DNA of 64,000 nt from contig OY761611.1 of NCBI GenBank assembly GCA_963664875.1, positions 2,112,001 through 2,176,000 of the forward strand. Reading direction: 5' to 3'. Below the pieces are notes generated by a model, which saw only the letters and a list, made by a program, of their open reading frames with translations, had not been told where the DNA came from and searched no databases. Positions 37,825-64,000 of this stretch are shown here, piece after piece; the stretch's first letter is position 1; the number at the start of each line of letters is the position of its first letter. Origin of the DNA: Candidatus Kapaibacterium sp. (GTDB lineage: Bacteria; Bacteroidota; Ignavibacteria; Kapaibacteriales; UBA2268). The translations under genes and the position numbers were made by a program.

Positions 37825-38439
37825 ATGAAACTATACTTAGTTAAATATAAAGGCCCATTTGGATATATCAAACCTTGGACCGCTGTCAGAGACGATGAAA
37901 CTTTCAGCCAGCAATTTTTGACACCTTCCATTATAGAGGGTATGGAGAAAAAGCTTTTTCCGGAAATGCTCTCCCAAAAGGGAATTCAAAAGATTAAGAG
38001 ACATCGGTTGAGGTATAGAAGCATGTCAAAACAACAGGAAGTTACTCAACCCAAAGGTACTGAAATTAAAAGCAAACCAAAAGAAGGTAAAATTGAAGTC
38101 AAGAGAGATAGATCTATTATCAATCGCTTTGTACTCGTTGAACCAACTTTGTTTTTAGCATTTGATAACCAGGAAGATGCTGAAATAGCTTCAACACAAC
38201 ACATCTGCTTATGTAGAAATGAAGATGTGTTGCTTCCTACTCAGGAAATTATCGAAACAACTTCCGATGAATTCGATAACAATAATGGGAGTTTCAATGG
38301 TTTTGAACTAGTTTTTGGAGAGTCGGAAGATTCGTTTATTGTAGGTATGAATCGATATGATATGTCAAAAACCATGCACGGCAGTTTCAAAATAGTCGGT
38401 CAAAATCCTTTAATTTCTGAGTTTACTCATGAAGACTAA
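37825..38439 (+). CDS. cas5: Divergent Cas5
   Basis: Y.GPFG....W..VRD..T.SQ..LTPS...G N-terminal RAMP motif; position in operon. Confidence 0.7.
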   Translation: MKLYLVKYKGPFGYIKPWTAVRDDETFSQQFLTPSIIEGMEKKLFPEMLSQKGIQKIKRHRLRYRSMSKQQEVTQPKGTEIKSKPKEGKIEVKRDRSIINRFVLVEPTLFLAFDNQEDAEIASTQHICLCRNEDVLLPTQEIIETTSDEFDNNNGSFNGFELVFGESEDSFIVGMNRYDMSKTMHGSFKIVGQNPLISEFTHED

Positions 38440-40570: not shown

Positions 40571-40581
40571 GAGATTCTTAT

Positions 40582-41958: not shown

Positions 41959-41959
41959 T

Positions 41960-43030: not shown

Positions 43031-43035
43031 CGCTT

Positions 43036-43551
43036 ATGTTTGATCAGATTTATAAATCGCTTTCCGCTACAGGCACTGAGATTAACTATTTCTTTGTCTG
43101 TAAGCGGAAGCTTTGGTACTCAGCTCATCAGATTAACTGCGAAAACGAAAGTGATAATGTAGCTGCCGGTAATCTTTTGCACTCTGCCTCCTACCAAAAT
43201 AAAAGAAAAGAATACCTTTTCGATAAAATCAAAATTGACTGGTTGGATCTGAAAAACGGAATCATCCACGAAGTCAAAAAGTCTGACAAAATGGAAGAGG
43301 CTCACCTCTGGCAGCTTAAATACTATCTGCACTATTTCCGAGAAAAAGGTATTGGCAACTTCACCGGCGAACTAAACTATCCTCTACAAAAAAGCAAACT
43401 CACGGTTTCACTCGAAGATGATGATATCCCTAAATTGGAAAAGCTGCTGGAGGATATAGAAGCCATAAAACTGCTCGAAACAGTGCCGCCTTTGCCTTCA
43501 AAGAAGTCAATTTGTAATAAGTGCGCATACTATGAGCTGTGCTATATCTAA
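43036..43551 (+). CDS. cas4: Cas4 nuclease
   Basis: NYFFVCKRKLW, KID, HEVKKS, QLKYY, C..C.Y...C Fe-S motif. Confidence 0.93.
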   Translation: MFDQIYKSLSATGTEINYFFVCKRKLWYSAHQINCENESDNVAAGNLLHSASYQNKRKEYLFDKIKIDWLDLKNGIIHEVKKSDKMEEAHLWQLKYYLHYFREKGIGNFTGELNYPLQKSKLTVSLEDDDIPKLEKLLEDIEAIKLLETVPPLPSKKSICNKCAYYELCYI

Positions 43552-43560
43552 GGGGAACTT

Positions 43561-44634
43561 ATGAAAAAAAATATGTTTATTTTTACTCCGGGGAAGCTAT
43601 CGAGAAAAGATAATACCGTTTTTTATATGCCGTTTGCGTTTCCTACAGAAGCGGATGACGAGCAGTTGCAGGAAGAAATACTGCTTTCTATCGATAGTGA
43701 GCAGCCGGAAACTAACAGAGGTAACAAAAAAGTGCTGCCTATTGCCGACATTGATTCATTTTATATTATGACCGAAGCAAGCTACAATACTAAGTTTTTA
43801 GAGTTTTGTTCACAAAATAGCATAAGTATCCATTACTTTAACCGATTCGGATTTTACTACGGCTCATTTATTGGCAAAAGCAAACTCCAAAGCGGATATG
43901 CCCTTGTGCATCAGGTAGAGCATTACAAAAACAAGAAAAAGCGTCTTGCCCTTGCAAAATCTTTTGTTCGAGGTGCCGCATTTAACATTAGTAAAAATCT
44001 GAAATACTACAACAATCGCGAAAAAGACATGAGTGCCCAGCTTGACACAATTGAGTCTGTGCTTTATGAAATAGACGAAGCACAGGATATTGAGCACATT
44101 ATGAATGTGGAAGGCAGGATTCGCAAAATATACTATACTGCTTATAACGAGATATTGTCGAATGGATTTAAGTTCGAGAGGCGAAAATACAATCCGCCGA
44201 CCGACCCGATAAATGCGATAATTTCATATTGCAATTCGCTTGTTTATACTACTTGTTTGTCCGAGCTTTATCACACCCAGTTAGAACCGACAGTCTCGTT
44301 CCTGCACCAACCAAGCGAAAGGCGTTACTCTTTAGCGCTGGACTTGGCAGAGATATTCAAGCCTCTTATAGCAGACAGAATGATGTTCAAACTCATCAAT
44401 CAGGGGCAGCTCAAGCTAAATGATTTTGAAAAAGACCTTAACTACTGCTATCTCAAAGAATCCGGCAGAAAGAAAATCACACAGGAATATGACAAACGAC
44501 TACAAAAAACTATCAAACACAGAGATCTAAACAGAAATGTATCCTATCGCCGGCTAATCCGACTCGAATGTTACAAGCTGATAAAACACATCACCGGCGA
44601 AAAAGAATATGTACCATTTAAGGCATGGTGGTAG
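43561..44634 (+). CDS. cas1: Type I-B Cas1 with N-terminal acidic insertion
   Basis: RKDNT, EG.IR..YY, PP.DPINA.IS, SFLH, SLALDLAEIFKP, FKAWW. Confidence 0.95.
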   Translation: MKKNMFIFTPGKLSRKDNTVFYMPFAFPTEADDEQLQEEILLSIDSEQPETNRGNKKVLPIADIDSFYIMTEASYNTKFLEFCSQNSISIHYFNRFGFYYGSFIGKSKLQSGYALVHQVEHYKNKKKRLALAKSFVRGAAFNISKNLKYYNNREKDMSAQLDTIESVLYEIDEAQDIEHIMNVEGRIRKIYYTAYNEILSNGFKFERRKYNPPTDPINAIISYCNSLVYTTCLSELYHTQLEPTVSFLHQPSERRYSLALDLAEIFKPLIADRMMFKLINQGQLKLNDFEKDLNYCYLKESGRKKITQEYDKRLQKTIKHRDLNRNVSYRRLIRLECYKLIKHITGEKEYVPFKAWW

Positions 44635-44635
44635 T

Positions 44636-44902
44636 ATGTATTACATAGTAGTTTACGACATCAACGAAAAGCGTGTCAATAAAATGCTGAAGCTATGTCG
44701 GCAGTATTTGCACTGGGTGCAAAATTCAACATTTGAAGGCGAACTGACACCGGTGCAAATGGCAGAATTAAAAATGCGAGCCAAGCAGATAATGATCAAT
44801 GAAGAAGACTCATTAATCATTTATAAAATACGCTCGGATAAGTACTTAGACAAAGAAATGATGGGCAAGGACAAGAGTGACTTGACTTCAAATTTCATAT
44901 AA
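44636..44902 (+). CDS. cas2: Cas2
   Basis: YYIVVYDI...RV.K..K.CRQYL.WVQNSTFEG. Confidence 0.95.
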   Translation: MYYIVVYDINEKRVNKMLKLCRQYLHWVQNSTFEGELTPVQMAELKMRAKQIMINEEDSLIIYKIRSDKYLDKEMMGKDKSDLTSNFI

Positions 44903-45124: not shown

Positions 45125-48100
45125 CATCTAATCGCACCACTGTAGTATTGAAATGTTGCATTGTGTCTATGCCAAAGAATAGTGCCGATACATCTAATCG
45201 CACCACTGTAGTATTGAAATCATCACAAACGCAAAGCACAAGTTTATTGTTTTTTCATCTAATCGCACCACTGTAGTATTGAAATAAAATTTTAGCAAGT
45301 TTTTTTGAATAAATTGCGTATCATCTAATCGCACCACTGTAGTATTGAAATAATGTAGCAGAGTCTATTAAGTCGTTCGCTTCCTTTCATCTAATCGCAC
45401 CACTGTAGTATTGAAATGATATTTGCTCTCTAATAAAGTTAAATATGTTTACACATCTAATCGCACCACTGTAGTATTGAAATTTTTGTAATAATACCAT
45501 AGCGGCTCTAATTTGAGTACATCTAATCGCACCACTGTAGTATTGAAATAATAAAAACAGTTTATAGCTTGTTTATGTAGCTCGTCATCTAATCGCACCA
45601 CTGTAGTATTGAAATTCGATTGCTCCACCTTTCCAAAATCCTTTTGCATTTGCATCTAATCGCACCACTGTAGTATTGAAATAATAATTCTTATGTATTG
45701 TACCATATTTACGCAGTCGGCATCTAATCGCACCACTGTAGTATTGAAATACTGATAACTTATAAGCATTTAATACAGACGTTAATCATCTAATCGCACC
45801 ACTGTAGTATTGAAATTTAGGTTCTGAAATTCCATTACTTTCAGTAGATGTCATCTAATCGCACCACTGTAGTATTGAAATGTGAATTGTGAAATACTAT
45901 TAGTTATAGCTGTTAACATCTAATCGCACCACTGTAGTATTGAAATCTCGATAAACTCTATATCGGATAAGTCAAATATTGTCATCTAATCGCACCACTG
46001 TAGTATTGAAATTGCCAAACGTGGAATATACAACTTAGTCAATATCGGCATCTAATCGCACCACTGTAGTATTGAAATTCAAACCTTGCAACGCCTTGCA
46101 ATTTCAATTCAATTTCATCTAATCGCACCACTGTAGTATTGAAATCTAAGATTAACAAAGACGATGCACAATTAAACAGCGACATCTAATCGCACCACTG
46201 TAGTATTGAAATACGTATTCGTAAGCTAAAGTTAAATCTACTGTAACGTCATCTAATCGCACCACTGTAGTATTGAAATTTGGAGTTACAGTTAGATTCT
46301 CTGTCGTTGTTTGGCCATCTAATCGCACCACTGTAGTATTGAAATGTAAATAACAGAGCTATTCACTATCTCTACGAGCAACATCTAATCGCACCACTGT
46401 AGTATTGAAATCATGGGAAACTATATCATATCAGGAACAACTTGAAACATCTAATCGCACCACTGTAGTATTGAAATACTAAAATTATGATAGTAAGCTA
46501 TCTCTGCGGCGTTCATCTAATCGCACCACTGTAGTATTGAAATAGGAATTTCCCCGGCTACATATTTAATAATTCGTGACATCTAATCGCACCACTGTAG
46601 TATTGAAATTCAATACTCTGAAAAATGTCACAAGCTCTGAGTCAACATCTAATCGCACCACTGTAGTATTGAAATTTGCAAGGGCAATACCTTTAGCACG
46701 ATCATTGAAACATCTAATCGCACCACTGTAGTATTGAAATCATTTTGTTAAACAACATATTGATTCTAAAATTCCCGCATCTAATCGCACCACTGTAGTA
46801 TTGAAATGTGTTTTTTACAGTGCGATTGAAAGTATCAAATTCGCATCTAATCGCACCACTGTAGTATTGAAATTTTAATGGTTAGTTATGATATTAATAC
46901 TATCCTCAAACATCTAATCGCACCACTGTAGTATTGAAATGGCTGACGAGTCGTAGAGCTTGGGTCTTGAAACCTACATCTAATCGCACCACTGTAGTAT
47001 TGAAATCTGCATAAACGGCAGCCGCTGCAAGACCGCCCATTACATCTAATCGCACCACTGTAGTATTGAAATTGCGTTCGCTTTGTCAAAACCTACTGTT
47101 TTTATATCCATCTAATCGCACCACTGTAGTATTGAAATGTATGTAATCACTTAAATTAACTGATTTAATATTCCATCTAATCGCACCACTGTAGTATTGA
47201 AATCTCGAATATTGTTTTAGCCTTGATATTGCTCTTTGCATCTAATCGCACCACTGTAGTATTGAAATACCGCACAGGCAGCTACTCAAATTAGAGCTGC
47301 TATGGCATCTAATCGCACCACTGTAGTATTGAAATTCGACAACGGGGCGACGTGGCGTAAATTTGAAACGGCATCTAATCGCACCACTGTAGTATTGAAA
47401 TAAATCTAAAGCAAGCATCTCTAATTCAATATCATTGACATCTAATCGCACCACTGTAGTATTGAAATTATCAAATAGTTGCTACTGAAAAGATAATTGA
47501 AGAACATCTAATCGCACCACTGTAGTATTGAAATATTACTACAATGGCTATAAGTCAGACGACGGTAAACCCATCTAATCGCACCACTGTAGTATTGAAA
47601 TTGATGTAACATTAACTTTAGAGGGTACTGATAATGCATCTAATCGCACCACTGTAGTATTGAAATATAGTGCCTTATGCTATTCAAGCATTCAAAGATT
47701 ATCATCTAATCGCACCACTGTAGTATTGAAATCGATTGAGAATTACGTTATGATCGATAGCCGTTTGCCATCTAATCGCACCACTGTAGTATTGAAATGA
47801 TGTTAGAATTTCTTTAAAATCGGTATCGTATTCGCATCTAATCGCACCACTGTAGTATTGAAATGCTATTAAGTTATAATCTTGTGCTTTTGGAATTGCC
47901 ATCTAATCGCACCACTGTAGTATTGAAATTTAAAAACATCAGTAGAGGCATTAAGCGACGTTGTTCATCTAATCGCACCACTGTAGTATTGAAATTAATG
48001 CAAGATAATTACTATGTAGAAGCGCCAATTTCATCTAATCGCACCACTGTAGTATTGAAATATAGTTAGATATTCAAAAGGGCTTGCAATGGTAAGACAT

Positions 48101-51100
48101 CTAATCGCACCACTGTAGTATTGAAATTTTTGTGAAACAGCAAGCTCTAAAGACTTATTAACCATCTAATCGCACCACTGTAGTATTGAAATCAGTTCAA
48201 AGATTTCTTGCTCTGTCATATCTCGCATCATCTAATCGCACCACTGTAGTATTGAAATTTCGCAAGCAGAAAATCTTGCGGAGGGCTTTATTAGCATCTA
48301 ATCGCACCACTGTAGTATTGAAATTTGACTGCAATGTTTCGTTTGGTATGTATTCGAGGCATCTAATCGCACCACTGTAGTATTGAAATAATAATACGGA
48401 TAACACAGTAACTGACAATACTGATCATCTAATCGCACCACTGTAGTATTGAAATCCAAATAGCGTTTGGCTTCTCGCATCAACAAAACAACATCTAATC
48501 GCACCACTGTAGTATTGAAATTTTTCAAAAACTTTATTAGTGTAGAAGTCCCAAACTACATCTAATCGCACCACTGTAGTATTGAAATTATTAAAATAAA
48601 ATAATTGTATAATTCAAAACTTTTCATCTAATCGCACCACTGTAGTATTGAAATGAATTGTAATCATTTGTTACTAAAGTTTGATACAAACATCTAATCG
48701 CACCACTGTAGTATTGAAATATGAGTATAATCAGGCACTTGCAATCAGCGATAATGCATCTAATCGCACCACTGTAGTATTGAAATTAAGCCAAAAACAA
48801 GACCTATGACTAAAGAGGAAATCATCTAATCGCACCACTGTAGTATTGAAATACTAAATACATAGAAATTGGTTCTTTGGAATCTGACATCTAATCGCAC
48901 CACTGTAGTATTGAAATACCGACAGATAATAAATTATTTTATGATACTAAAGCCATCTAATCGCACCACTGTAGTATTGAAATCAGTACAACAATTAACT
49001 CTGTTAAAGCTATGGATAACATCTAATCGCACCACTGTAGTATTGAAATTTTTCAAAAACTTTATTAGTGTAGAAGTCCCAAACTCATCTAATCGCACCA
49101 CTGTAGTATTGAAATTTCTATCCTTAAAAGAATGAGCAAAAAGCCTATCCACATCTAATCGCACCACTGTAGTATTGAAATTATCTACTCGATTAAAAAC
49201 AATATTGTCCGTGTCAGCATCTAATCGCACCACTGTAGTATTGAAATGCTGGTGAAGCTATTATACCACTTGACAAGTTGCCAACATCTAATCGCACCAC
49301 TGTAGTATTGAAATTTCTGTTTATAAAATTAACTAACTTACTATCTTTGCATCTAATCGCACCACTGTAGTATTGAAATGATTATACTCATCGGTTTGCA
49401 AAAATCGTTCAATATCATCTAATCGCACCACTGTAGTATTGAAATCCAAAATATGATAGTCTTTGCCTGTAATCTTATTCATCATCTAATCGCACCACTG
49501 TAGTATTGAAATTTTATTTTCATAAATTACTAAACTCGGATTTCTATCCATCTAATCGCACCACTGTAGTATTGAAATCCATGAATGACAAAATCACAAT
49601 TTTCTTTATGGAAGCATCTAATCGCACCACTGTAGTATTGAAATATTTATGAAAAACATATCTGTTAGAAAAATATTCAAACATCTAATCGCACCACTGT
49701 AGTATTGAAATCTTGTATTAGTTCCTGTAAAGTTACCGAAAACTTGCCATCTAATCGCACCACTGTAGTATTGAAATTATGTTTGGAGTGCAAGAGCTTT
49801 GGACTTTAGCAAGCATCTAATCGCACCACTGTAGTATTGAAATTTAAATTCATAGCTAAAGATTTAGTTTTAGTGCCACATCTAATCGCACCACTGTAGT
49901 ATTGAAATTTGCAATAAGCGATGTAACAGACTTACAGTCAGAGCTTCATCTAATCGCACCACTGTAGTATTGAAATAACTTTAGCCAAAATTCAGGTCAA
50001 TATTATGATAATCATCTAATCGCACCACTGTAGTATTGAAATCCTGCTGGTTCGATAATGCTTGCACTTTCGGCAGGCATCTAATCGCACCACTGTAGTA
50101 TTGAAATCTTTGTATTTGATAACATTCAAAATAACACGAAGTAACATCTAATCGCACCACTGTAGTATTGAAATTCAAATTGTTGCGACTTAGTCAAAAC
50201 TCGCAATTCCATCTAATCGCACCACTGTAGTATTGAAATAAGTCAGGAGATTACTTAGTTTGGAATTACGGAAGTGCATCTAATCGCACCACTGTAGTAT
50301 TGAAATTATAGACCATCAGATGATGACGGATTAGTACCATTTCATCTAATCGCACCACTGTAGTATTGAAATCACGGTACACATACTATGGTGGCTCTCG
50401 CTTTAATCATCTAATCGCACCACTGTAGTATTGAAATTTAAATTTGCATTTAGCTTTGACTGCTCGCTTCCGCATCTAATCGCACCACTGTAGTATTGAA
50501 ATTTAATCAATGGCTTGTTAACTCGTATAGTTTCGAGCACATCTAATCGCACCACTGTAGTATTGAAATCGTAAGGTTTGCGGTTCATAAGTTTGAGTAC
50601 TTGAACCATCTAATCGCACCACTGTAGTATTGAAATGACACATATTATCAGATTATAGATGACGATGATTCTCATCTAATCGCACCACTGTAGTATTGAA
50701 ATTGCGGAATCGGTCCATATAAGAGCTATGACAGAATCCATCTAATCGCACCACTGTAGTATTGAAATAACGGTCGACGTTGGATATATTAAAGTCCAAT
50801 ACACCATCTAATCGCACCACTGTAGTATTGAAATAGATTTTGATTTATATTACGAAACAGCCGACACAGACATCTAATCGCACCACTGTAGTATTGAAAT
50901 GTAGTATTTTTACGTACTCTGTAATTTTGAGCCGCAACATCTAATCGCACCACTGTAGTATTGAAATAATATAAAAGTAATCGGATTTATAATTTTGTCT
51001 CCACATCTAATCGCACCACTGTAGTATTGAAATCTTGTTCAAAGAGCTGCATAACATTATAACCGTCCGCATCTAATCGCACCACTGTAGTATTGAAATG

Positions 51101-54100
51101 AACTAATACTTGACATTTTGCCCCTGATTTATCTGACATCTAATCGCACCACTGTAGTATTGAAATATGTTATCCTCACCTGTTTCAGCACCACCGATAT
51201 TGCCATCTAATCGCACCACTGTAGTATTGAAATATTGAACTTGTGCATAATTAGTATTTATCTTCTCTCATCTAATCGCACCACTGTAGTATTGAAATTA
51301 GAAAGGATTTAAAACGCAAACATTTGATAGAAAACATCTAATCGCACCACTGTAGTATTGAAATTTTTTTAAATTGTCATTAGTGCCGTCGGGTTGGTCG
51401 CATCTAATCGCACCACTGTAGTATTGAAATTAATAAATATCTAATCAATTTATAATCTTCTTTCTCAACATCTAATCGCACCACTGTAGTATTGAAATGA
51501 GCTTTGATATTTGTAGTCCGAAAGATTCATTTTTCATCTAATCGCACCACTGTAGTATTGAAATTTATTCATTGCTTTTAACATTGGACGGTACTTGTTA
51601 GCATCTAATCGCACCACTGTAGTATTGAAATTTGACTACGTTGTTCTCTTTACATATTCTAAATACCCATCTAATCGCACCACTGTAGTATTGAAATACA
51701 TTTGCCTATAACTATATGCAAAATGTTAGTCGTCATCTAATCGCACCACTGTAGTATTGAAATTTGCTATTTGCTTACACTTCTTACTAATTTTACTTAC
51801 ATCTAATCGCACCACTGTAGTATTGAAATTACTGAGTGCAATGTGGGAAATGACAGAGGCGGCAACATCTAATCGCACCACTGTAGTATTGAAATACAAT
51901 TAAAGCCGATTCAGCTTCAGGAATGCCCTGTCATCTAATCGCACCACTGTAGTATTGAAATAACTCAATTATAGACAATATGTTTGATTTCCAAAAACAT
52001 CTAATCGCACCACTGTAGTATTGAAATCGTTCTAAGGCTGCGATTATATTGCTGAATTGTTGCCATCTAATCGCACCACTGTAGTATTGAAATGCTACGA
52101 CAAATTATGTCGTAATGTTTACAATCCATCATCTAATCGCACCACTGTAGTATTGAAATACGCTACCCGTCACCGTGCAAATAGGGCGTTTGTATCATCT
52201 AATCGCACCACTGTAGTATTGAAATTAAAATTTTTTCAATAGGTCTCGTTCGGCAATATATCATCTAATCGCACCACTGTAGTATTGAAATAAGCTTACG
52301 AGGGCTCAATAACAGAATTAAGTCAAACATCTAATCGCACCACTGTAGTATTGAAATTCGTTCACGGCATCCATTACGACCTGCCCTTGCGACATCTAAT
52401 CGCACCACTGTAGTATTGAAATGCACAATACAGATATTCTTGTCGTGTTATAGCTATACATCTAATCGCACCACTGTAGTATTGAAATGAACGCGCGACG
52501 TTAACAAAAAACAGCTTCGTTGCCATCTAATCGCACCACTGTAGTATTGAAATTAAAGACCCAACAACGGGAGCAAATATCAAGTTCTGGCATCTAATCG
52601 CACCACTGTAGTATTGAAATTTTAACGATGCTCGTATAGTATCTATATGTAACTCTTCATCTAATCGCACCACTGTAGTATTGAAATCATTTGCTCACAT
52701 TTGGTTTGCTATTGTGCAGGCTCCATCTAATCGCACCACTGTAGTATTGAAATTTTTGATTATACTTTATTACTAAGTCGTAATATTGCATCTAATCGCA
52801 CCACTGTAGTATTGAAATTTTTTGAAAACAAGTATATAGTCAGGCTGAGCTGTCATCTAATCGCACCACTGTAGTATTGAAATGTAGAAGAAGCGTTGCA
52901 CTTAAATTGTCTGCTATGCATCTAATCGCACCACTGTAGTATTGAAATACAAGTAATGGATAAGAAAAAAGGAATATAGAATGACATCTAATCGCACCAC
53001 TGTAGTATTGAAATCTTGGCTCTACACAAGCCCCGGAAGAATACTATCCTCATCTAATCGCACCACTGTAGTATTGAAATCCTTTAATACCATGTAATTG
53101 ACTGGTTTATTTCAATCATCTAATCGCACCACTGTAGTATTGAAATGTAAAATTACCAAAAACTTGCACTACTCCTGCACTACATCTAATCGCACCACTG
53201 TAGTATTGAAATAAGTCTAAAATGCTTGCTTCCTGTATCGGTTTAATTGCATCTAATCACACCACTGTAGTATTGAAATTATGGTGGTGCTGGGGAAGTA
53301 TTTAAAGGTCAAGACATCTAATCGCACCACTGTAGTATTGAAATCACGCTTAAATATATAATTAACTTGTTAAACAAACACATCTAATCGCACCACTGTA
53401 GTATTGAAATCTTGGTAGTGGGGGGATATGGAGCGACTCGGCACAACATCTAATCGCACCACTGTAGTATTGAAATAAGAACACAATATCCGCTTGATGC
53501 AGGAAGAACTTTGCATCTAATCGCACCACTGTAGTATTGAAATTAAAGTACCCTCGCCTTTACGTGGGTTCGCACCCGCATCTAATCGCACCACTGTAGT
53601 ATTGAAATACCAAAGACACATAAAGAATGTAAATAAATTTCCACATCTAATCGCACCACTGTAGTATTGAAATTCAGCACTAAACAAGAAGTCAATAGTT
53701 GTCGTCCCGCATCTAATCGCACCACTGTAGTATTGAAATTAAGAACCGAATAGTAGTAAGATACCTAATACTATCCATCTAATCGCACCACTGTAGTATT
53801 GAAATGATACTATGCAACTGGGTAGCGTAACAGAGGTATTTGCATCTAATCGCACCACTGTAGTATTGAAATTATGGTGGTGCTGGGGAAGTATTTAAAG
53901 GTCAAGACATCTAATCGCACCACTGTAGTATTGAAATCACGCTTAAATATATAATTAACTTGTTAAACAAACACATCTAATCGCACCACTGTAGTATTGA
54001 AATCTTGGTAGTGGGGGGATATGGAGCGACTCGGCACAACATCTAATCGCACCACTGTAGTATTGAAAAATCAGTAGAATTGCAGATATTAAAAGAACGT

Positions 54101-57100
54101 ACTGACATCTAATCGCACCACTGTAGTATTGAAAAATGCCTATAATCTGGAACAGCTTGCTTAACTTCGTACATCTAATCGCACCACTGTAGTATTGAAA
54201 AATTGAGGCAACTGAATTAACGGACGACGGGACAAGTCATCTAATCGCACCACTGTAGTATTGAAAAATTGCAATATCAGATGTAACAGGCTTGCAGGGC
54301 GAGCCATCTAATCGCACCACTGTAGTATTGAAAAAAAATTCAAAACCTGAGCCGCCTCCGCCGCCCATTGCATCTAATCGCACCACTGTAGTATTGAAAA
54401 AAAGATAACATTAGTCATTTTTTTCATTTTAGAACTCCATCTAATCGCACCACTGTAGTATTGAAAACCAGCAGCAGCACTAACAATTCCAATCGGTTCG
54501 CAAGGCATCTAATCGCACCACTGTAGTATTGAAAACTTAGCTCTGCATAACTTGCAGCTCTATAACGCATCATCTAATCGCACCACTGTAGTATTGAAAA
54601 CCGCCTGCATTGCGTATCATCTGCCCCCGTGTACGACATCTAATCGCACCACTGTAGTATTGAAAACCGCCTGCATTGCGTATCATCTGCCCCCGTGTAC
54701 GACATCTAATCGCACCACTGTAGTATTGAAAAAAAGTATCAAACAATCCTGAAAACAAAGCTTGTACCATCTAATCGCACCACTGTAGTATTGAAAAAGG
54801 TCTAAATTTGCGTTTTTGGCTCTGATTACGCCACATCTAATCGCACCACTGTAGTATTGAAAAGTAATTTTAGTATTATCACCAGTACCGCCAGCTGTTC
54901 ATCTAATCGCACCACTGTAGTATTGAAAATTATAAGTAGATTTCCCTTGCGTTTCATAAAACAGACATCTAATCGCACCACTGTAGTATTGAAAATAAAT
55001 CCGAATATTTCAAGCCTACAAAGAACGAAAATCATCTAATCGCACCACTGTAGTATTGAAAACAATTAAATACTGATAATTCATTCCGTAAATAAACTTC
55101 ATCTAATCGCACCACTGTAGTATTGAAAATGCAATCCCATTGTAGAAACCACCGCACCAGTCATATCATCTAATCGCACCACTGTAGTATTGAAAATTGC
55201 TTATATGAGTTCCTTTGTAGTAAGTATCTACATCTAATCGCACCACTGTAGTATTGAAAACACTCTTAAAGATGAAGGCAAGGTAGCAATACCTGACATC
55301 TAATCGCACCACTGTAGTATTGAAAATTTTCGGCAACAGCACATACGGCAGAACTATCGTTCATCTAATCGCACCACTGTAGTATTGAAAATTGGATATC
55401 GTTATCAATATCATTCATAAAATCAGCCATCTAATCGCACCACTGTAGTATTGAAAACTAAGCTATCCAATGCCATTGCTTCGGATTCAAATTGCATCTA
55501 ATCGCACCACTGTAGTATTGAAAAAAAGAGTCTTTAAAGGCTACATATAAGCAAATGTTACATCTAATCGCACCACTGTAGTATTGAAAAAAATCAGCTG
55601 GAACCGGAAACTGAACACGCAAAAGCATCTAATCGCACCACTGTAGTATTGAAAACTGTTTATAATCAGCATGTTTTCTAATCTTTGTAAACATCTAATC
55701 GCACCACTGTAGTATTGAAAAAACCCTAAGAACTCCTTAACACCGTTTGCAATGTCCATCTAATCGCACCACTGTAGTATTGAAAACTGCAAATATTATT
55801 GATTACTTGCATCCAAAATCAGTCATCTAATCGCACCACTGTAGTATTGAAAATTTAAGTCAGCACAAATGATGTGTGATAAGCACGTACATCTAATCGC
55901 ACCACTGTAGTATTGAAAATATTCAAGATACAAGAATTATAGGAGCCCGTATATACATCTAATCGCACCACTGTAGTATTGAAAACAGGGTATAGGTGGG
56001 ATTGCTAACAGAATATATCACATCTAATCGCACCACTGTAGTATTGAAAAATTGTTCTTTAATTTTTGTATCTCTTTTAATCGAATCATCTAATCGCACC
56101 ACTGTAGTATTGAAAACACTAATCGGCAGCATAGTATCGACGTCTAACTCACATCTAATCGCACCACTGTAGTATTGAAAATGTTTTAATACTAAAGGGG
56201 GTAATCCATTATTATCTACATCTAATCGCACCACTGTAGTATTGAAAATCCATTATTGCATAATACAAATCTTCTTTGCTCATTCATCTAATCGCACCAC
56301 TGTAGTATTGAAAATGCATTATTTAGAAGTAATCCATGTTCAATATAACCCATCTAATCGCACCACTGTAGTATTGAAAAATTGTAGCTGCTGATGTGAT
56401 TGTGATTGACTGTAAAGCATCTAATCGCACCACTGTAGTATTGAAAAGTTAATGAATTGCCTAAAAGCCTATGCTCTTTATGCATCTAATCGCACCACTG
56501 TAGTATTGAAAAAGTTATACGAATTAGACGTTAATACAATGCTTCATACATCTAATCGCACCACTGTAGTATTGAAAACTCGTTATGAGTGAAACGGTAT
56601 ATGTGCCGGCTGGGCATCTAATCGCACCACTGTAGTATTGAAAAAACAAAAACACGGTTTTGTTCTTCAACAAATTGCACATCTAATCGCACCACTGTAG
56701 TATTGAAAACACCTAACTCGCCCGTGTTGTCATAGACTTGTTTGTCATCTAATCGCACCACTGTAGTATTGAAAAAAAAGTTATTTAGCTCACCGCCTGA
56801 CAAATTGCTACATCTAATCGCACCACTGTAGTATTGAAAAGGATTTGGCACGTACGCAATCAATTCAGATAACGAGGCATCTAATCGCACTACTGTAGTA
56901 TTGAAAAGCGTCTATTTCGTCTCTATGCCTAATTACTTTGTAGTCATCTAATCGCACCACTGTAGTATTGAAAAGCGAAAATCATTAGGCTCTTGAAGCA
57001 ATTTGATTTCACATCTAATCGCACCACTGTAGTATTGAAAAACGCAAAATGAATAACATCAAAGCACAAAGCGAGGGCATCTAATCGCACCACTGTAGTA

Positions 57101-60100
57101 TTGAAAATATAAACTCCAAACGTACTTTGTCAAACTCTTTCACCATCTAATCGCACCACTGTAGTATTGAAAATATAATCTATACGGATACTAATGAGCG
57201 ACGTATTTCATCTAATCGCACCACTGTAGTATTGAAAAGTTCTTTATGAACTATAACTAATTGATTGTTTTCAGCATCTAATCGCACCACTGTAGTATTG
57301 AAAAATTGGTGTTATATAGTAGGGGCGGCTAAGCCCCTATCATCTAATCGCACCACTGTAGTATTGAAAAGACATTGTGATAGGCTTTTTAAATTCTCTG
57401 CATTTCATCTAATCGCACCACTGTAGTATTGAAAAGAATCCCATGTTCGGGCCAATGGATTGTAAACGTTACGCATCTAATCGCACCACTATAGTATTGA
57501 AAACCAACAACAAGTGCATCTATTAAGTCGTTCGCTTCCTCATCTAATCGCACCACTGTAGTATTGAAAATATTCTGAAACATATTTTGCAATTTTTTTT
57601 AGTTTTCATCTAATCGCACCACTGTAGTATTGAAAATAATGAGAATGAAACATATTTTGATGAAGATACTTATGCATCTAATCGCACCACTGTAGTATTG
57701 AAAATTGACAATTTCCCCTGTATAAATAGCAGTTTTAGCCACATCTAATCGCACCACTGTAGTATTGAAAACCATTCAGCACTTTGTTTACATATTCTAA
57801 TTCAATTCATCTAATCGCACCACTGTAGTATTGAAAAGAAACATATAATGCTTTTATAGATTATATATATGCTTCATCTAATCGCACCACTGTAGTATTG
57901 AAAAGCTGATTTCGGAGCCGGCTATTACGTTCCTCGCTCCCATCTAATCGCACCACTGTAGTATTGAAAATTTTCTTTACCGATTCCACAGCTCTCACAC
58001 CCCCACATCTAATCGCACCACTGTAGTATTGAAAATAGCCGTAACAGAGTTAATTGTGGTGCTGTGGTCTCCATCTAATCGCACCACTGTAGTATTGAAA
58101 AAAAAAATGAGCACAAAAGTATTAAATCCAAATATTTCATCTAATCGCACCACTGTAGTATTGAAAATGCCGAGCAATTTATAACATTGACAGCCGACAC
58201 GACATCTAATCGCACCACTGTAGTATTGAAAATTGTGCAATATTCGTATAATAATAATCAGGTTCTTTTCATCTAATCGCACCACTGTAGTATTGAAAAT
58301 GAAACAGTGGTGTTTGAGGATGGTTCAAAACATCATCATCTAATCGCACCACTGTAGTATTGAAAAGATAAACTATAAAATTAGAATAACTACTTGCGTT
58401 CGCCATCTAATCGCACCACTGTAGTATTGAAAATGCACTTGAATTGAGCTGTCTGGGTGCTGATTGGCAGCATCTAATCGCACCACTGTAGTATTGAAAA
58501 CAAAGAACGGCTAAATCATTTAATATGGATTGCACTTCATCTAATCGCACCACTGTAGTATTGAAAACGATTAGCAACTGGTGGCATCGCTACGAGTGAT
58601 ACACATCTAATCGCACCACTGTAGTATTGAAAACATGAAATAATAAAATTGCATGAAAAATATGGCTTCCCATCTAATCGCACCACTGTAGTATTGAAAA
58701 AACGATATGACTTCCTTAAAGGTCAATTTGAGTATTACATCTAATCGCACCACTGTAGTATTGAAAAGTTTTTCAGTCAGTAGGCGGTGCAATCGGTGAA
58801 TTACATCTAATCGCACCACTGTAGTATTGAAAATGACTTCTAAGTTCAATAATCTTCAATGTAACTTTGTCATCTAATCGCACCACTGTAGTATTGAAAA
58901 ATCTATCTATTACATCTAATTGTAACGGATGTACGTGCATCTAATCGCACCACTGTAGTATTGAAAACCGGTTACGAGCTTAACAATTATATTGACTTAA
59001 AGGCATCTAATCGCACCACTGTAGTATTGAAAACCTTCTTGCTCAAATACCTGCTTAACTTCGTAACCGTCATCTAATCGCACCACTGTAGTATTGAAAA
59101 GTCTATTAGTGCCAAGTATTCAGAGTCACCGTACACATCTAATCGCACCACTGTAGTATTGAAAAAAATATCAGCAGGCTCTTTGTAGTCATCAATACCA
59201 AACATCTAATCGCACCACTGTAGTATTGAAAATATTTTTTAATATATGACTTTGCTTTTTGGTATAACACATCTAATCGCACCACTGTAGTATTGAAAAG
59301 TCATTTTCAATAGCCACTATATCCTGAGGTAATTTCATCTAATCGCACCACTGTAGTATTGAAAATTAGGCTGTCCATTAACACCTGAGCCTAAGAGCAA
59401 ACATCTAATCGCACCACTGTAGTATTGAAAATGTTTTTAAATCGAGTGAGTAAGTGAAACGTTCGTATCATCTAATCGCACCACTGTAGTATTGAAAATT
59501 GGAAGTTCAAAGTAAAGAGGTTGAATTTAAATTTCATCTAATCGCACCACTGTAGTATTGAAAATTTTGTAGAGCTGCCTGTATCGCTGTTACTATTCCC
59601 CATCTAATCGCACCACTGTAGTATTGAAAAACGTGCAGGGACTGCCAAACCGTCAAGTTTTGATTTCATCTAATCGCACCACTGTAGTATTGAAAATTAA
59701 TAATCGTTTCTAAATACATGCCATATTCTGCACCATCTAATCGCACCACTGTAGTATTGAAAATAGTATCAATAATACCTAAGACCGAGTCATACATGAC
59801 ATCTAATCGCACCACTGTAGTATTGAAAATATCTACTCATTTTGTAACTCCGATTGCTGTTGTTTGCATCTAATCGCACCACTGTAGTATTGAAAATTTG
59901 CAGGCATAGATATTTAGAGCCGAAAAAATGACATCTAATCGCACCACTGTAGTATTGAAAATTTAGTATATTTCTCTAACTTAACTATTATATCTTTCAT
60001 CTAATCGCACCACTGTAGTATTGAAAATTATCGGGCAGGTCGCCTGTATTTGATTGCCCTAAAACATCTAATCGCACCACTGTAGTATTGAAAACGGAAA

Positions 60101-61056
60101 TTTTATAGTATTGATCCTTTGATTACGTTGTCATCTAATCGCACCACTGTAGTATTGAAAAAAGGCTTGGAACGTGCGAGTATAACGAGATGTTTGGACA
60201 TCTAATCGCACCACTGTAGTATTGAAAATGAAGCAGACAGGCAGGCAGAAGAAGTAATATATACCATCTAATCGCACCACTGTAGTATTGAAAAGCTTGG
60301 AAGTTCGAAGATGCGTCATTATCGAGATGACATCTAATCGCACCACTGTAGTATTGAAAAGTTCCTGCCGTCCCTCCTCCTCGGAAATTTTATAGTACAT
60401 CTAATCGCACCACTGTAGTATTGAAAACCAACACGGAAAAGTCCAAGCTCGTTCGCTACCTGCCATCTAATCGCACCACTGTAGTATTGAAAATTATCAC
60501 TATTGACTGCATTCATAAGCTCTGAATAACATCTAATCGCACCACTGTAGTATTGAAAAACGAGCAGGAACTGCCAAACCGTCAAGTTTTGATTTAGCAT
60601 CTAATCGCACCACTGTAGTATTGAAAACTTCTATATCCTTAATACAATTTTCAACCGAAGCACATCTAATCGCACCACTGTAGTATTGAAAATTTTCTGT
60701 CTTAGCTTCACTTTCTAAGCTCTTGTGAACATCTAATCGCACCACTGTAGTATTGAAAAAAGAAATTTGGTAAAACTACTTTTTTATTGAACTCTCATCT
60801 AATCGCACCACTGTAGTATTGAAAGCTAATTTTTCGGCAATTTCCTGATTCGCTTCAAAAGCATCTAATCGCACCACTGTAGTATTGAAAGTTCATCACG
60901 TATAAGATTTTCAAAATAAATACAAAACATCTAATCGCACCACTGTAGTATTGAAAGGACCGACAACCGGGGTCGGTTTTGTTGTGGTTATATCATCTAA
61001 TCGCACCACTGTAGTATTGAAAGCAGCATTATGCCTTCAAAATTCCCCTCAAGAGG

Positions 61057-62248
61057 CAGGGATGATTTGTTCTTTGTAAATATCATATAATATAGTAAAT
61101 TATAGAAAGCCAAACACAAACTTTTCTAATCTGGGGGGATTTATGGAAAAGCAAACGTTAGTAAATTATCTTGATAAGTTGACAGATAAGCGTCGCAGGG
61201 AAGGCACACGCCATAATCAATCATTTGTATTATTGCTGGTTTTGATGGCGACTATGAGCGGACAATATGGCTATCGTGGCATAGAAAGATTTATAAAGAA
61301 GAATGCCGAAGACATACTGAAATATTTAAAGCCTCATAAAGATAGATTACCAACTTACGCAACAATTTTTAGAGTGGTAAATAATATAGATTTTGATGAA
61401 TTTGCACAGATTTTTAAAGAGTGGTCAAAAGTTTATGCAAAGCCTCAAAGCGGTGAAATAATCAGTATAGATGGCAAAGCTTTGAAAGGCACATTAGTAG
61501 AATACAATTCGAAATACCAGAACTTTATAAGCATTGTTTCTGCACATTCTCAATCAAGTAAAATGTCACTAAGTATAAGCAAATATGAGAATAAAAAATC
61601 AAGCGAGATAAGCGTAGTTGAAGAAATGATTAGAGATTTAGAACTGACTGGCGTAGTCTTTACAATGGATGCTTTACACTGTCAAAAAAACTCTAAGAAC
61701 AATTGTTAGTACTAACAACAACTATATTATTTGCGTAAAAAAGAATCAAGGTCGTTTGTACAAAGAACTGGAGAGTTTGAGTTCGAGCTGGTCAACAAAG
61801 ATCGATTATTATAAAACCGAAGAAACTAATAGAGACAGACGAGAAACTCGTAAAGTATATGTATATTCATTAAACGATAAAATTAAGAACGAGTGGTCCG
61901 GATCACAGCAATTAGTAAAGGTACAAAGGATTAGAAAAACAAAACAAATGCAGGAAGTTCATGTACATTATTATTTGAGCAGTCAAGAAAAACCAGCAAA
62001 GTATTATATGCAGAGCATACGAGGACATTGGGGCATTGAAAACCAGCTACATTGGGTAAAGGATGTGGTAATGAAAGAAGATGCTTGGAAAGTGAGAAAT
62101 ACACAAGCAGCTTCAGTCATGAGTATAATAAAGTCAATTTGTATCAATATTTTTAGGTCAAAGAAGCGTATTGATTGTACCAACTTTTTCTATGAGACTG
62201 CCGACAATGTAGAACTATTGGTGACTTTGTTAGAATGAATCAACCCTG
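61057..62248 (+). mobile_element. ISAs1-family IS inserted within a CRISPR spacer
   Basis: Ends CAGGGATGATT / AATCAACCCTG; flanks restore a 38-nt spacer if 10 bp were duplicated. Confidence 0.9.
61143..62238 (+). CDS. ISAs1 transposase split into two frames at an A7 run (slippage-dependent or pseudogene)
   Basis: D.RR..G.RH, IDGK.LKG, K.SEI, TMDALHCQK | VKKNQ..L, RGHWGIENQLHWVKDV...ED; junction TGTCAAAAAAACT at ~61680-61692. Confidence 0.85.
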
Positions 62249-64000
62249 CCTCTTGAGGGGTGGCATCTAATCGCACCACTGTAGTATTGAAAGAATAGTT
62301 ACAAAGAGGGTACGGAGGAAAATGAGAGGCATCTAATCGCACCACTGTAGTATTGAAAGTGACTTCGAAGCTCAATAATTTTGAGTGTAACTTTACATCT
62401 AATCGCACCACTGTAGTATTGAAAGAAGCTTTTGATAATATTCTTAGGTCTAAGGTATGGCCATCTAATCGCACCACTGTAGTATTGAAAGTAATACGTG
62501 TATCTGGTAGCGTTCGTTATTGATTTCCATCTAATCGCACCACTGTAGTATTGAAAGGTGCCTGCGTTTCTAACAAGATTCTAAAATTCATTCATCTAAT
62601 CGCACCACTGTAGTATTGAAATACATTACCAAGTAGTGTTACTCGGTTTAGTGATTTTGCATCTAATCGCACCACTGTAGTATTGAAATTTGAATATCGT
62701 TATCAATGTCATTCATAAAGTCAGCCATCTAATCGCACCACTGTAGTATTGAAATCCGATGGCGTGAACTATGCTGCAGCTACTGGAAGCGACATCTAAT
62801 CGCACCACTGTAGTATTGAAATTACATCCTCGCCCGCGGTCTTGAAAGTTGCTGCAAGCATCTAATCGCACCACTGTAGTATTGAAATTACATCTTTTCA
62901 ACTGCAAGCGTTGCAACTGCAATGCATCTAATCGCACCACTGTAGTATTGAAATTAAGGCGGTGTAATATGGCAAGAACAATAATAGTTAACATCTAATC
63001 GCACCACTGTAGTATTGAAATTGGATTAACGGCAGGTCGTCTAAGTTAGATTTTGGTCATCTAATCGCACCACTGTAGTATTGAAATACAGTGAATTATT
63101 AGACAAAAAATACTTAGATAACGCATCTAATCGCACCACTGTAGTATTGAAATCAAGCTCCTAATCTAAATAGAAAGCTTTGGCTTGACATCTAATCGCA
63201 CCACTGTAGTATTGAAATACTAAGTGGCAAATATCACATGATAACTACACACACCATCTAATCGCACCACTGTAGTATTGAAATTATGCTTATAAGTATA
63301 AGACCAATTCTCAAGTATATCATCTAATCGCACCACTGTAGTATTGAAATAAAACTTGTACCACACCCTGTGAGTTGTTCGGTATGCATCTAATCGCACC
63401 ACTGTAGTATTGAAATTGGATTAACGGCAGGTCGTCTAAGTTAGATTTTGGTCATCTAATCGCACCACTGTAGTATTGAAATCTTTTTCCTCTAATAATT
63501 GAACTATCAAAGTGTCTTGCATCTAATCGCACCACTGTAGTATTGAAATTGATTTTATGGTAGGCAGATATTTGTTTATCAGTTCACATCTAATCGCACC
63601 ACTGTAGTATTGAAATAGCTAGCAACTATAAAAACACTTTTGCACAATTTGCCATCTAATCGCACCACTGTAGTATTGAAATGATCATGAAGATATAGCC
63701 GCATATATCGAATACACCCATCTAATCGCACCACTGTAGTATTGAAATTAATCAGCACCAACTGTAAATACTATCTCATTGCCTTCATCTAATCGCACCA
63801 CTGTAGTATTGAAATGACTTGTCTTTATCTATTGATTCAAGTATAAAGCAATCATCTAATCGCACCACTGTAGTATTGAAATTCCAATACACATCGCTGT
63901 TATCAACTTCTTCTTTTAACATCTAATCGCACCACTGTAGTATTGAAATACAAATACGGTCTATTTAGTAGCTGTAAGAGTCGCTGCATCTAATCGCACC

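What the first reader, a model, noticed from the sequence alone, without database searches (positions are those of the whole stretch)
45125..64000. CRISPR repeat terminal base switches in four uniform blocks (T to A to G to T): a stratified acquisition record
Seen: every repeat I read at 45125-54003 ends ATTGAAAT (~135 units), at 54040-60759 ATTGAAAA (~102), at 60796-62557 ATTGAAAG (9), and from 62593 ATTGAAAT again. The other 29 nt are nearly invariant (isolated SNPs at 53259, 56891, 57491 did not propagate). Near-identical spacers with the same 5' start follow A in one block (55392) and T in another (62690), so the base belongs to the repeat, not the protospacer. Established: the leader-proximal repeat is copied at each acquisition. 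Inference: three heritable changes all at the same junction nucleotide point to a specific mechanism. One option is a rare 1-nt slip of spacer-side integration that recruits a spacer base into the repeat; another is block exchange between sister arrays. This base is position -1 of the crRNA 5' handle, so four epochs of crRNA coexist.
Basis: partly seen in the sequence, partly recalled or inferred. Interest (0 to 1): 0.78.

Follow-up and report, generated by a model that had tools for sequence, protein, structure and literature searches.

The report
CRISPR repeat's last base switches in blocks
A very long CRISPR array keeps a heritable one-letter mark at the last base of its repeat, laid down in uniform blocks; the pattern is real and recurs in related bacteria.

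Summary
The array has 273 repeats of 30 nt; 267 start inside the window and the rest lie about 400 nt beyond it. Base 30 runs T135, A102, G9, T24, G1, T2, and no other position shows any run longer than one.

Base 30 belongs to the copied unit (the duplicon). It is inherited perfectly within blocks, whereas the next base, spacer base 1, shows no inheritance.

Across 61 related arrays or array pieces (3571 repeats), 17 of 23 heritable variant blocks sit at base 30. This is therefore a family-wide hot spot.

The same genome holds a natural experiment. Its only Cas1 also serves a second array, where an insertion sequence (IS) split the first repeat. Nine more spacers were then added behind a hybrid repeat made of 20 nt of repeat plus 10 nt of IS. 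The far cut is thus set by distance, not by sequence, as shown experimentally in Haloarcula hispanica.

The slip idea fails two tests:
- The founder spacers are not 1 nt short.
- Two relatives toggle strictly between two bases.

My best reading is a few changes at an unconstrained base, followed by repeat-to-repeat recombination between array lineages. Reads and protospacers could not be obtained.

The parts
37156..37812 (+). cas6
   Evidence: TIGR01877, 88 bits against a cut-off of 58.65
37825..38439 (+). 204-aa ORF in the cas operon, family unknown
   Evidence: No NCBIfam or Pfam match. A cas5-like role is only a guess from its position.
38429..40570 (+). cas3 (HD nuclease plus helicase)
   Evidence: TIGR01587, 223 bits; TIGR01596, 75 bits
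40582..41958 (+). 458-aa ORF, candidate large subunit, family unknown
   Evidence: No NCBIfam or Pfam match
41960..43030 (+). cas7-like gene
   Evidence: Weak matches below the cut-off: TIGR01875 at 28.6 bits and TIGR02585 at 22.5 bits. No Pfam match.
43036..43551 (+). cas4
   Evidence: TIGR00372, 75.5 bits against a cut-off of 65
43561..44634 (+). cas1, type I-B class; the only cas1 in the genome
   Evidence: TIGR03641 (Cas1b), 430.5 bits against a cut-off of 304.1. A whole-genome search found 1 match among 6 scored candidates.
44609..44902 (+). cas2
   Evidence: TIGR01573, 55.5 bits
44903..45124 (+). Leader, A+T-rich
   Evidence: Lies between cas2 and repeat 1. The degenerate repeats are at the far end of the array.
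45125..54039 (+). Block 1: repeats 1-135, ending in T (the leader-proximal block)
53250..53446 (+). Units 124-126, whose spacers are identical to those of units 133-135
   Evidence: 0 mismatches and the same lengths of 35, 36 and 36 nt. Repeat 124 carries a private SNP.
53843..54039 (+). Units 133-135, the second copy of the triplet, directly above the T/A boundary
54040..60795 (+). Block 2: repeats 136-237, ending in A
60796..62592 (+). Block 3: repeats 238-246, ending in G
61045..62260 (+). ISAs1-family insertion sequence inside spacer 241; ends approximate
   Evidence: Two overlapping ORFs match NF033564 at 122.7 and 141.4 bits. There are 7 copies in the genome at 99.3-100% identity.
62593..64000 (+). 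Block 4: repeats 247 onward, ending in T. It continues past the window: T24, G1, T2 and a degenerate stub, ending about 400 nt beyond.

Best explanation
This is the array of a type I CRISPR-Cas locus whose Cas1 is of the I-B class.

How the blocks form. At each acquisition the first (leader-proximal) repeat is copied as a 30-bp unit. The leader-side cut sits at the leader-repeat junction. The far cut is placed by distance from inside the repeat, whatever the sequence there. Base 30 is therefore the last base inside the copied unit. Whatever stands there in the first repeat passes to every later repeat, so each uniform block is the clonal progeny of one state of the first repeat. This part is shown.

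Why base 30. The integrase does not read the distal end of the repeat, and base 30 is evidently tolerated by the rest of the system. It is the least constrained and fastest-changing repeat position in this repeat family. This is shown as a pattern; the cause is inferred.

How the order arose. The order T-G-T-G-A-T (oldest to newest) most likely came from a few real changes of that base (T to G, G to A). Repeat-to-repeat recombination between diverged lineages or genome copies of the same array then stacked a T-type segment on top of the A-type one. This part is inferred.

Consequence. crRNAs with three different handle ends would coexist. This is inferred and was not tested.

On the confidence figure. 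I hold the first two parts (inheritance of a 30-bp, distance-defined duplicon, and base 30 as the family's hot spot) at about 0.9. I hold the recombination part at about 0.45. The figure given is for the whole statement.
For: (1) The inheritance boundary is sharp. Base 30 is uniform within blocks. Spacer base 1 shows no neighbour-to-neighbour inheritance: 445 identical neighbours against 447.5 expected, among 1536 pairs in 16 arrays.

(2) The base is not PAM-derived.
- Same-register spacer pairs follow A versus T and A versus G.
- One overlapping spacer pair (231 over 227) gives an upstream flank of CCT for a spacer that follows A.

(3) A natural ruler experiment exists in this genome.
- There is only one cas1.
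- A second I-B effector module without cas1, cas2 or cas4 has its own array.
- An ISAs1-family IS sits in that array's repeat after base 20.
- The 9 units on the leader side carry a hybrid 30-nt repeat (20 nt of repeat plus 10 nt of IS end), with spacers of 35-38 nt.

(4) This matches H. hispanica type I-B, which also has a 30-bp repeat. There the distal cut is sequence-independent and about 10 bp from a motif at positions 18-22; mutants at positions 26-30 still duplicate 30 bp; and no PAM base is taken up (PMC4872114, sections 14-15 read).

(5) The hot spot shows in two independent sets.
- Genome set: 16 array pieces from 12 genomes, 1588 repeats; 11 of 13 variant blocks are at base 30.
- Metagenome set: 45 arrays, 1983 repeats; 6 of 10 blocks are at base 30.
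- Arrays with the same 29-mer differ in their main last base.

(6) Evidence for recombination.
- Spacers 124-126 equal spacers 133-135 in the same order and with the same lengths, three units above the T/A boundary. This fits an unequal join of two lineages, P-X... and Y-X-A...
- Segmental duplicates are common in related arrays.
- Toggling is strictly between two alleles: G/T nine times in G157 and C/T nine times in G092.
Against: - No reads could be laid, so the assembly of a 19-kb array is unverified.
- No protospacer was found, so the PAM rests on one 16-nt spacer overlap.
- No strain was found that carries the T block or the A block alone, so the recombination step is an inference from one duplicated triplet and from patterns in other genomes.
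- That triplet sits three units above the boundary and not on it. It shows recombination in this array but does not show that the T/A switch was made by it.
- Recombination still needs alleles at base 30 to begin with. By a rough count, their number exceeds what the rate of isolated repeat SNPs predicts by about two orders of magnitude, and no mechanism for that excess was shown.
- No second array with this repeat exists in G000. G157, which is 98% complete, shows about 11 copies of the 11-nt repeat motif beyond its 120-repeat array, close to the 11 on its other strand; this argues against a second array there but was not checked directly. Any partner arrays would therefore have to be in other cells or other genome copies.
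- The window's large subunit and cas5 were not recognised by any family model.
Confidence: 0.5

Rival explanations
1. Serial change in place. Every switch happened in this lineage's first repeat, through an error tied to acquisition at the spacer-side junction. This includes the reader's 1-nt slip, in which a 29-bp duplication makes the new spacer's first base become base 30.
For: - The position is exactly the ruler-set cut site.
- Aberrant 29- and 31-bp duplications occur in H. hispanica mutants.
- The hot spot exceeds what isolated SNPs predict.
- The founder spacer of the G block (unit 246) is 35 nt, one below the mode.
- In this array the five switch targets are as likely as chance under recruitment: P = 4.7e-3 against 4.1e-3 for a uniform choice.
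Against: - Pooled over 39 switches, the founder spacers are not shortened: +0.07 nt against the predicted -1, p = 1.2e-7.
- G157 and G092 toggle between only two bases, with P = 4.9e-5 and 9.2e-6.
- Spacer base 1 shows no spill-over of inheritance, which a sloppy ruler would produce.
- Switch rates are very uneven: 0 in 256 repeats in G109, and 0 in the newest 91 repeats of G157 against 9 in its oldest 30.
Confidence: 0.25
2. Ordinary point mutation of the first repeat at the only neutral position. No special process and no recombination are involved.
For: - Base 30 is not needed for adaptation.
- Most switches in the wider family are C/T transitions.
Against: - A rough count gives 62 isolated variants in 3571 repeats x 30 sites. 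From this, well under one first-repeat mutation at base 30 is expected across all 61 arrays. Observed: 17 blocks in 9 arrays.
- This array alone needs 3-5 hits at one base and none at the other 29.
- Two-allele toggling would need repeated exact back-mutation.
Confidence: 0.1
3. Assembly chimera. The blocks belong to arrays of different strains, or to separate arrays, that the assembler joined through the shared repeat.
For: - The array is 19 kb of near-identical repeats.
- No reads could be checked.
- The nearest relative's record is titled a MAG, a metagenome-assembled genome; whether G000 is one is not known.
Against: - The same kind of pattern occurs in 9 of 61 independent arrays, including other single-contig genomes.
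- Every junction is an ordinary repeat-spacer unit of normal length.
- The genome is one contig with no N.
- Later blocks hold updated versions of spacers found in older blocks.
Confidence: 0.07
4. Base 30 comes in with each spacer as the last PAM base, as in E. coli type I-E, and the blocks reflect changes in PAM choice.
For: - In E. coli the last repeat base is PAM-derived (PMC3338789, passages read).
- The one inferred flank here ends in T, which is the family's common last base.
Against: - In E. coli such variants are not propagated, whereas here 135 and 102 consecutive repeats agree.
- Same-register spacers follow different bases.
- The spacer whose flank ends in T follows an A.
- H. hispanica type I-B takes up no PAM base.
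Confidence: 0.03

Closest known systems
Ruler-defined repeat duplication in Haloarcula hispanica type I-B (Wang et al. 2016, PMC4872114; sections 14-15 read)
   Same: - The repeat is 30 bp and ends in an ATTGAA-type 8-nt handle.
- The distal cut is set by distance, whatever the sequence.
- An altered distal end is copied into new repeats.
- No PAM base is taken up.
- The IS-hybrid repeats of array 2 are a natural counterpart of their mutants at positions 21-30.
   Different: - Here the evidence comes from natural arrays and not from engineered ones.
- The mid-repeat motif differs: GTAGT at positions 18-22 here, against GTGGG there.
- The block-wise, recurrent switching of the last base in nature is not mentioned in the two sections I read.
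PAM-derived last repeat nucleotide in E. coli type I-E (Swarts et al. 2012, PMC3338789; passages read)
   Same: The variable position is the last base of the repeat, next to the PAM-proximal end of the spacer.
   Different: In E. coli the base enters with each spacer, matches the PAM, and is not propagated to the next unit. Here it is propagated through 102 and 135 units and does not track the spacer.
PAM-end slipping and spacer-size control in H. hispanica type I-B (Li et al. 2017, PMC5416893; passages read)
   Same: - Spacers are 35-38 nt.
- The third-last spacer base is poor in G and enriched in C, as they report.
   Different: Their slipping concerns trimming of the prespacer, which does not change the repeat.
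Trailer-end repeat degeneracy and isolated repeat SNPs in CRISPR arrays (general knowledge; also the introduction of PMC4466440, passages read)
   Same: Isolated, non-propagated SNPs and a degenerate last repeat are present here too.
   Different: Those features are single repeats. The feature in question is uniform blocks of up to 135 repeats at one position.
Recombination or reassortment of CRISPR loci between strains (recalled from the literature on Sulfolobus and other populations; no paper read here)
   Same: Segments of arrays are joined through repeats, giving mosaics.
   Different: Here the repeat's last base would act as a visible tag of each segment's origin. I did not find this described.

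Membership tests
Type I-B CRISPR-Cas | Cas1 of the I-B class | tested here: met
   TIGR03641, 430.5 bits against a cut-off of 304.1
Type I-B CRISPR-Cas | Cas3 (HD nuclease plus helicase), the type I signature | tested here: met
   TIGR01587, 223 bits; TIGR01596, 75 bits
Type I-B CRISPR-Cas | Cas8b large subunit | tested here: inconclusive
   The 458-aa ORF at 40582-41958 matches no NCBIfam or Pfam family. No structure prediction was run.
Type I-B CRISPR-Cas | Cas7 and Cas5 of the Cascade backbone | tested here: inconclusive
   The Cas7-like ORF matches only below the cut-off, at 28.6 bits. The 204-aa ORF has no match.
Type I-B CRISPR-Cas | Cas4-Cas1-Cas2 adaptation module and Cas6 | tested here: met
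   cas4 at 75.5 bits, cas2 at 55.5 bits, cas6 at 88 bits, all above their cut-offs
Type I-B CRISPR-Cas | Repeat of about 30 nt ending in an ATTGAAAN-type 8-nt handle | tested here: met
   273 repeats of 30 nt end in ATTGAAA[T/A/G]. That these 8 nt form the crRNA 5' handle is by analogy; no RNA data were used.
Ruler-set, sequence-independent 30-bp duplicon (H. hispanica model) | New repeats copy exactly 30 bp counted from the leader-repeat junction | tested here: met
   Base 30 is inherited and base 31 is not. The hybrid repeats of array 2 are identical over 30 nt.
Ruler-set, sequence-independent 30-bp duplicon (H. hispanica model) | The distal cut does not depend on the sequence at the distal end | tested here: met
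   9 spacers were added behind a repeat whose last 10 nt are IS sequence. T, A and G versions of base 30 all supported further acquisition.
Ruler-set, sequence-independent 30-bp duplicon (H. hispanica model) | An anchor motif at repeat positions 18-22 | not testable with these tools
   GTAGT stands where H. hispanica has GTGGG. This is a resemblance only and needs mutagenesis.
E. coli-type PAM-derived last repeat base | The last base matches the PAM's last base of each spacer and is not propagated | tested here: not met
   Uniform blocks of 135 and 102 repeats. Same-register spacers follow different bases.

The most novel reading that the evidence does not exclude
In this I-B repeat family the last base of the repeat is a true hot spot tied to acquisition or to its repair. 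It changes at least 50 times more often per site than the rest of the repeat. It therefore acts as a natural heritable barcode that reveals how giant arrays are built. Arrays that grow in parallel, in sister lineages or in several genome copies of one cell, would be stacked on one another by repeat-to-repeat recombination. The order of spacers would then not be a simple time line.
Probability: 0.3. Interest if true: 0.65.

Novelty: new member of a known kind. Interest (0 to 1): 0.45.

Why it matters
- The order of spacers in an array is widely read as a time line of infections. A one-base tag that marks which state of the first repeat made each unit gives an internal check on that reading. Here it hints that blocks may have been joined by recombination.
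- The pattern, together with the IS-hybrid repeats in the same genome, is natural evidence that a type I-B integrase outside the haloarchaea measures the repeat by distance and ignores its distal sequence.
- Repeat finders and typing schemes that treat the last base as fixed, or as part of the spacer, would mis-set spacer boundaries in such arrays.
- If the hot spot is tied to acquisition, it points to an error mode of integration or gap repair that has not been measured.

Tried and rejected
What led nowhere
- Reads: the look-up of sequencing runs on window 52001-62000 listed no run, so read laying was not used and the assembly is unchecked.
- Protospacers:
  - Megablast of the whole array against the phage collection gave no match.
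  - Five spacer cores scanned in viral contigs gave 0 hits each.
  - BLAST of the array against 130 genomes of the family gave only related arrays, IS copies and weak partial matches. When checked, those partial matches had 6-7 or more mismatches over the full spacer, so I did not use them for a PAM.
- Same repeat elsewhere:
  - The exact 28-mer found one other genome in genome contigs and none in metagenome contigs.
  - With up to 3 mismatches, 2 of 201 genomes of the order have it.
  - The relative shares no spacer with this array.

Ideas considered and rejected
- A sloppy ruler that also passes on spacer base 1. The run AAAAAACCCC of first spacer bases at the top of the A block suggested this, but the pooled test showed no inheritance at base 31.
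- Sequencing error next to the AAA run. This cannot give uniform blocks across 102 different spacer contexts.
- Exchange with a second array in the genome. None has this repeat.

Weak or unused results
- Spacer length differs slightly between the T and A blocks: means of 36.04 and 36.24 nt, chi-square p = 0.017. This is too weak to use.

Rows dropped
- The G129 array (40 repeats) was left out of the counts because its repeats vary at several positions.
- The last two repeats of every array were ignored in the block and SNP counts.
- Metagenome arrays with fewer than 10 repeats were dropped.
- Three genomes contribute 2-3 contig pieces each, so the 16 'arrays' of the genome set come from 12 genomes.

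Literature
- Six searches found no description of block-wise switching of the last repeat base.
- Subscription journals and supplementary files were not visible. Supplementary Data S1 of PMC4872114 may bear on how often single-base errors occur.

Tools and call errors
One search was re-sent within the size limit, and one search was re-sent within the term limit. One search was not repeated.
It was turned back because the confidence field was missing, and it was re-sent with that field filled.
Full report
**What is there**

The window carries a cas operon on the + strand: cas6, an unassigned 204-aa ORF, cas3, an unassigned 458-aa ORF, a weak cas7-like gene, cas4, cas1 and cas2, at 37156-44902. 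Cas1 matches the type I-B model well above its cut-off (430.5 against 304.1 bits), and cas3, cas4, cas2 and cas6 are also above their cut-offs. The two unassigned ORFs match nothing in NCBIfam or Pfam.

A 222-nt A+T-rich leader follows, and then the array begins at 45125.

The window holds 267 repeats. The whole genome is one contig of 3.83 Mb, and the window is C1:2112001-2176000. It holds 273 repeats, all in this array and none on the other strand. The array ends about 400 nt past the window in a degenerate stub, which confirms that the leader is on the cas side.

**The observation**

The repeat is 30 nt: CATCTAATCGCACCACTGTAGTATTGAAA plus one base. From leader to trailer that base runs T135, A102, G9, T24, G1, T2.

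Spacers are 34-38 nt. The exception is one 1240-nt stretch in the G block, which contains an ISAs1-family insertion sequence with seven copies in the genome.

**Does the base belong to the repeat?**

Three lines of evidence say it does.

- Spacer pairs from the same protospacer in the same register follow different bases: 156 (A) against 248 (T), with 3 mismatches, and 208 (A) against 243 (G), with 6 mismatches.
- Spacer 231 overlaps the start of spacer 227 by 16 nt and gives its upstream flank as CCT. Spacer 227 nevertheless follows an A. This is a single weak datum.
- Inheritance stops sharply after base 30. Across 16 related arrays, neighbouring spacers share their first base 445 times among 1536 pairs, against 447.5 expected.

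This is the opposite of E. coli type I-E. There the last repeat base comes in with each spacer from the PAM and is not passed on (PMC3338789, passages read). It agrees with H. hispanica type I-B, where no PAM base is taken up (PMC4872114, section 14).

**A natural ruler experiment in the same genome**

Two spacers of the main array (99 and 189) have near-twins, in the same register, in a second array at C1:1388621-1394491 that has a different repeat.

That second array follows a second type I-B effector module (cas6, cas8b, cas7, cas5, cas3) with no cas1, cas2 or cas4. The genome has only one cas1, the one in the window. The window's integrase therefore most likely loads both arrays; this is an inference.

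The same IS sits inside that array's repeat, after base 20, at two places. On the leader side of the first IS copy there are nine units whose 'repeat' is a 30-nt hybrid: 20 nt of repeat plus the first 10 nt of the IS. Their spacers are a normal 35-38 nt.

Acquisition thus went on after the IS had split the first repeat, and the copied unit stayed 30 bp although its distal third was foreign. This is what Wang et al. showed with engineered repeats: the leader-distal cut is sequence-independent and is measured from a mid-repeat motif. It follows that adaptation places no constraint on base 30.

**Is it special to this array?**

It is not. Only one other genome, of the same genus, has this exact repeat. 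Its 135 repeats (134 matched by the later parser) all end in T and it shares no spacers with this array. Related 30-nt repeats ending in ATTGAAAN are, however, common in the family.

Genome set: 16 array pieces from 12 genomes, 1588 repeats, ignoring the last two repeats of each.
- There are 13 blocks (runs of 2 or more) of a non-majority base, and 11 of them are at base 30.
- They lie in four arrays:
  - this one;
  - G157: T91 G1 T1 G2 T2 G6 T9 G3 T1 G3;
  - G112: T27 C4 T53;
  - G092: C4 T27 C70 T7 C17 T2 C8 T1 C6 T19.
- The other two blocks are at positions 2 and 20 of G092.

Metagenome set: 45 independent arrays, 1983 repeats.
- 6 of 10 blocks are at base 30.
- The majority last base is C in 23 arrays, T in 21 and G in 1.
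- Arrays with identical 29-mers can differ in it.

Isolated single-repeat variants number 62 in all, and 9 of them are at base 30.

Base 30 is therefore a family-wide hot spot for heritable change. By arrays, 9 of 61 have a block there, against 5 of 61 for the other 29 positions together.

**How do the switches arise?**

It makes two predictions, and both fail.

- The oldest spacer of each new block should look 1 nt short. Over 39 switches in 16 arrays it deviates by +0.07 nt (SD 1.02) from its array's mean, which rejects -1 at p = 1.2e-7.
- The new base should be drawn from the first-base composition of spacers. G157 switches nine times between G and T only, and G092 nine times between C and T only, with P = 4.9e-5 and 9.2e-6.

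For this array alone the tests have no power. There are five switches, their path probability is about that of chance, and the founder spacers are 36, 36, 35 and 36 nt. A slip cannot be excluded for the origin of the G and A alleles.

Plain point mutation at a neutral site is also insufficient. From the isolated variants I estimate about 1e-3 changes per site per array lifetime, so well under one first-repeat hit at base 30 is expected across all 61 arrays. Seventeen blocks are seen. This is my arithmetic. It assumes that isolated variants are neutral and that ages are evenly spread.

Strict two-allele toggling means that the 'other' allele is being restored from a template. That points to recombination between arrays, or array copies, that differ at this base.

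In this array there is direct evidence of such an event. Spacers 124-126 recur as 133-135, identical and in the same order, with six other units in between. An unequal join between two diverged descendants of one array gives exactly this structure: one with units 1-123 on top of the triplet, the other with units 127-132 on top of it. A simple tandem duplication does not.

Exact duplicates of single spacers with different 3' ends, such as 52 and 60 at 37 and 36 nt, show that hot protospacers are also re-acquired independently.

The triplet lies three units above the T/A boundary and not on it. It shows recombination in this array but does not prove that the boundary was made that way.

**Reading adopted**

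Shown:
- The blocks are the clonal progeny of successive states of the first repeat.
- Base 30 is the last base of a 30-bp, distance-defined duplicon.
- It is the hot spot of the family.

Inferred:
- A lineage changed T to G and then G to A.
- A T-type segment from a sister lineage or a sister genome copy was later joined on top.
- crRNAs with three handle ends coexist.

Unknown:
- Why new alleles arise so often at this one base.
- Whether the assembly is right. No run was listed and no read was laid.

**Comparison and novelty**

The locus is an ordinary member of type I, with the I-B class assigned through Cas1. Its large subunit is unrecognised.

That a changed first repeat is copied into later repeats follows from the known mechanism and from the H. 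hispanica experiments.

I did not find the following in six literature searches:
- the natural, block-wise and recurrent switching of the last base;
- its concentration at that one position across a repeat family;
- the two-allele toggling.

Subscription journals and supplements were not visible to me.

I rate this as a new member of a known kind with a useful and moderately surprising signature. The IS-hybrid repeats in the second array are, in my view, at least as notable as the original finding.

Noticed in passing
Genome C1:1388621-1389244 (outside the window; locus L081, about 12622-13245): The nine leader-proximal units of the second CRISPR array carry a hybrid 30-nt repeat: 20 nt of repeat plus 10 nt of the end of an ISAs1-family IS that split the former first repeat. 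Spacers are 35-38 nt. Acquisition therefore continued on a repeat that lacks its normal 3' handle. The newest spacer begins with TTGT, the next four bases of the IS, which may be chance or a longer duplication.
   Followed up: partly
Genome C1:1389234-1390440 and 1390965-1392171; window about 61045-62260: The same IS (7 copies at 99.3-100% identity; the transposase is split into two overlapping ORFs of 188 and 189 aa) sits at the identical position in two different repeats of array 2, and in spacer 241 of the main array. Three of its seven copies are thus in CRISPR arrays. Target preference for the array-2 repeat was not tested.
   Followed up: partly
Genome C1:1381865-1394491 (L081 5866-12495 plus the array): A second type I-B effector module (cas6, cas8b/Csh1, cas7/Csh2, cas5b, cas3) has no adaptation genes. 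Its array holds two adjacent spacers that are near-twins, in the same register, of spacers 189 (A block) and 99 (T block) of the main array. Their order in array 2 is the reverse of their order in the main array.
   Followed up: partly
Window 33542-36187, minus strand: Two tyrosine recombinase genes of the XerC/XerD type (443 and 413 aa) lie about 1 kb upstream of the cas operon. The locus may sit on or beside an integrative element.
   Followed up: no
L041 (G129:C2), 4128-6717: A related array of 40 repeats has repeat positions 5 (G/T) and 18 (A/T) varying almost unit by unit and independently of each other. This is unlike the clean blocks seen elsewhere and is unexplained.
   Followed up: partly
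Window 54070-54700 (spacers 136-145): The first bases of ten consecutive spacers at the top of the A block read AAAAAACCCC. Spacers 144 and 145 are identical. The pooled test shows no inheritance at this position, so this is probably chance.
   Followed up: yes
Window 45125-64000, spacer 3' ends: The third-last spacer base is poor in G and enriched in C: 8 G and 38 C among the 135 spacers of the T block. This resembles the preference reported for H. hispanica type I-B.
   Followed up: partly
L033 (G157:C9), about 14233-14330: One repeat of the related G157 array is interrupted by a short palindromic AT-rich insert (AATTCAGAATGCAGAATTCAGAATTCTGAATT).
   Followed up: no
Genome C1:3188182-3188515: A 66-nt tandem repeat, picked up by my crude array finder, reads like a coding repeat rich in GACAGAGAC. 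It is not a CRISPR array.
   Followed up: no
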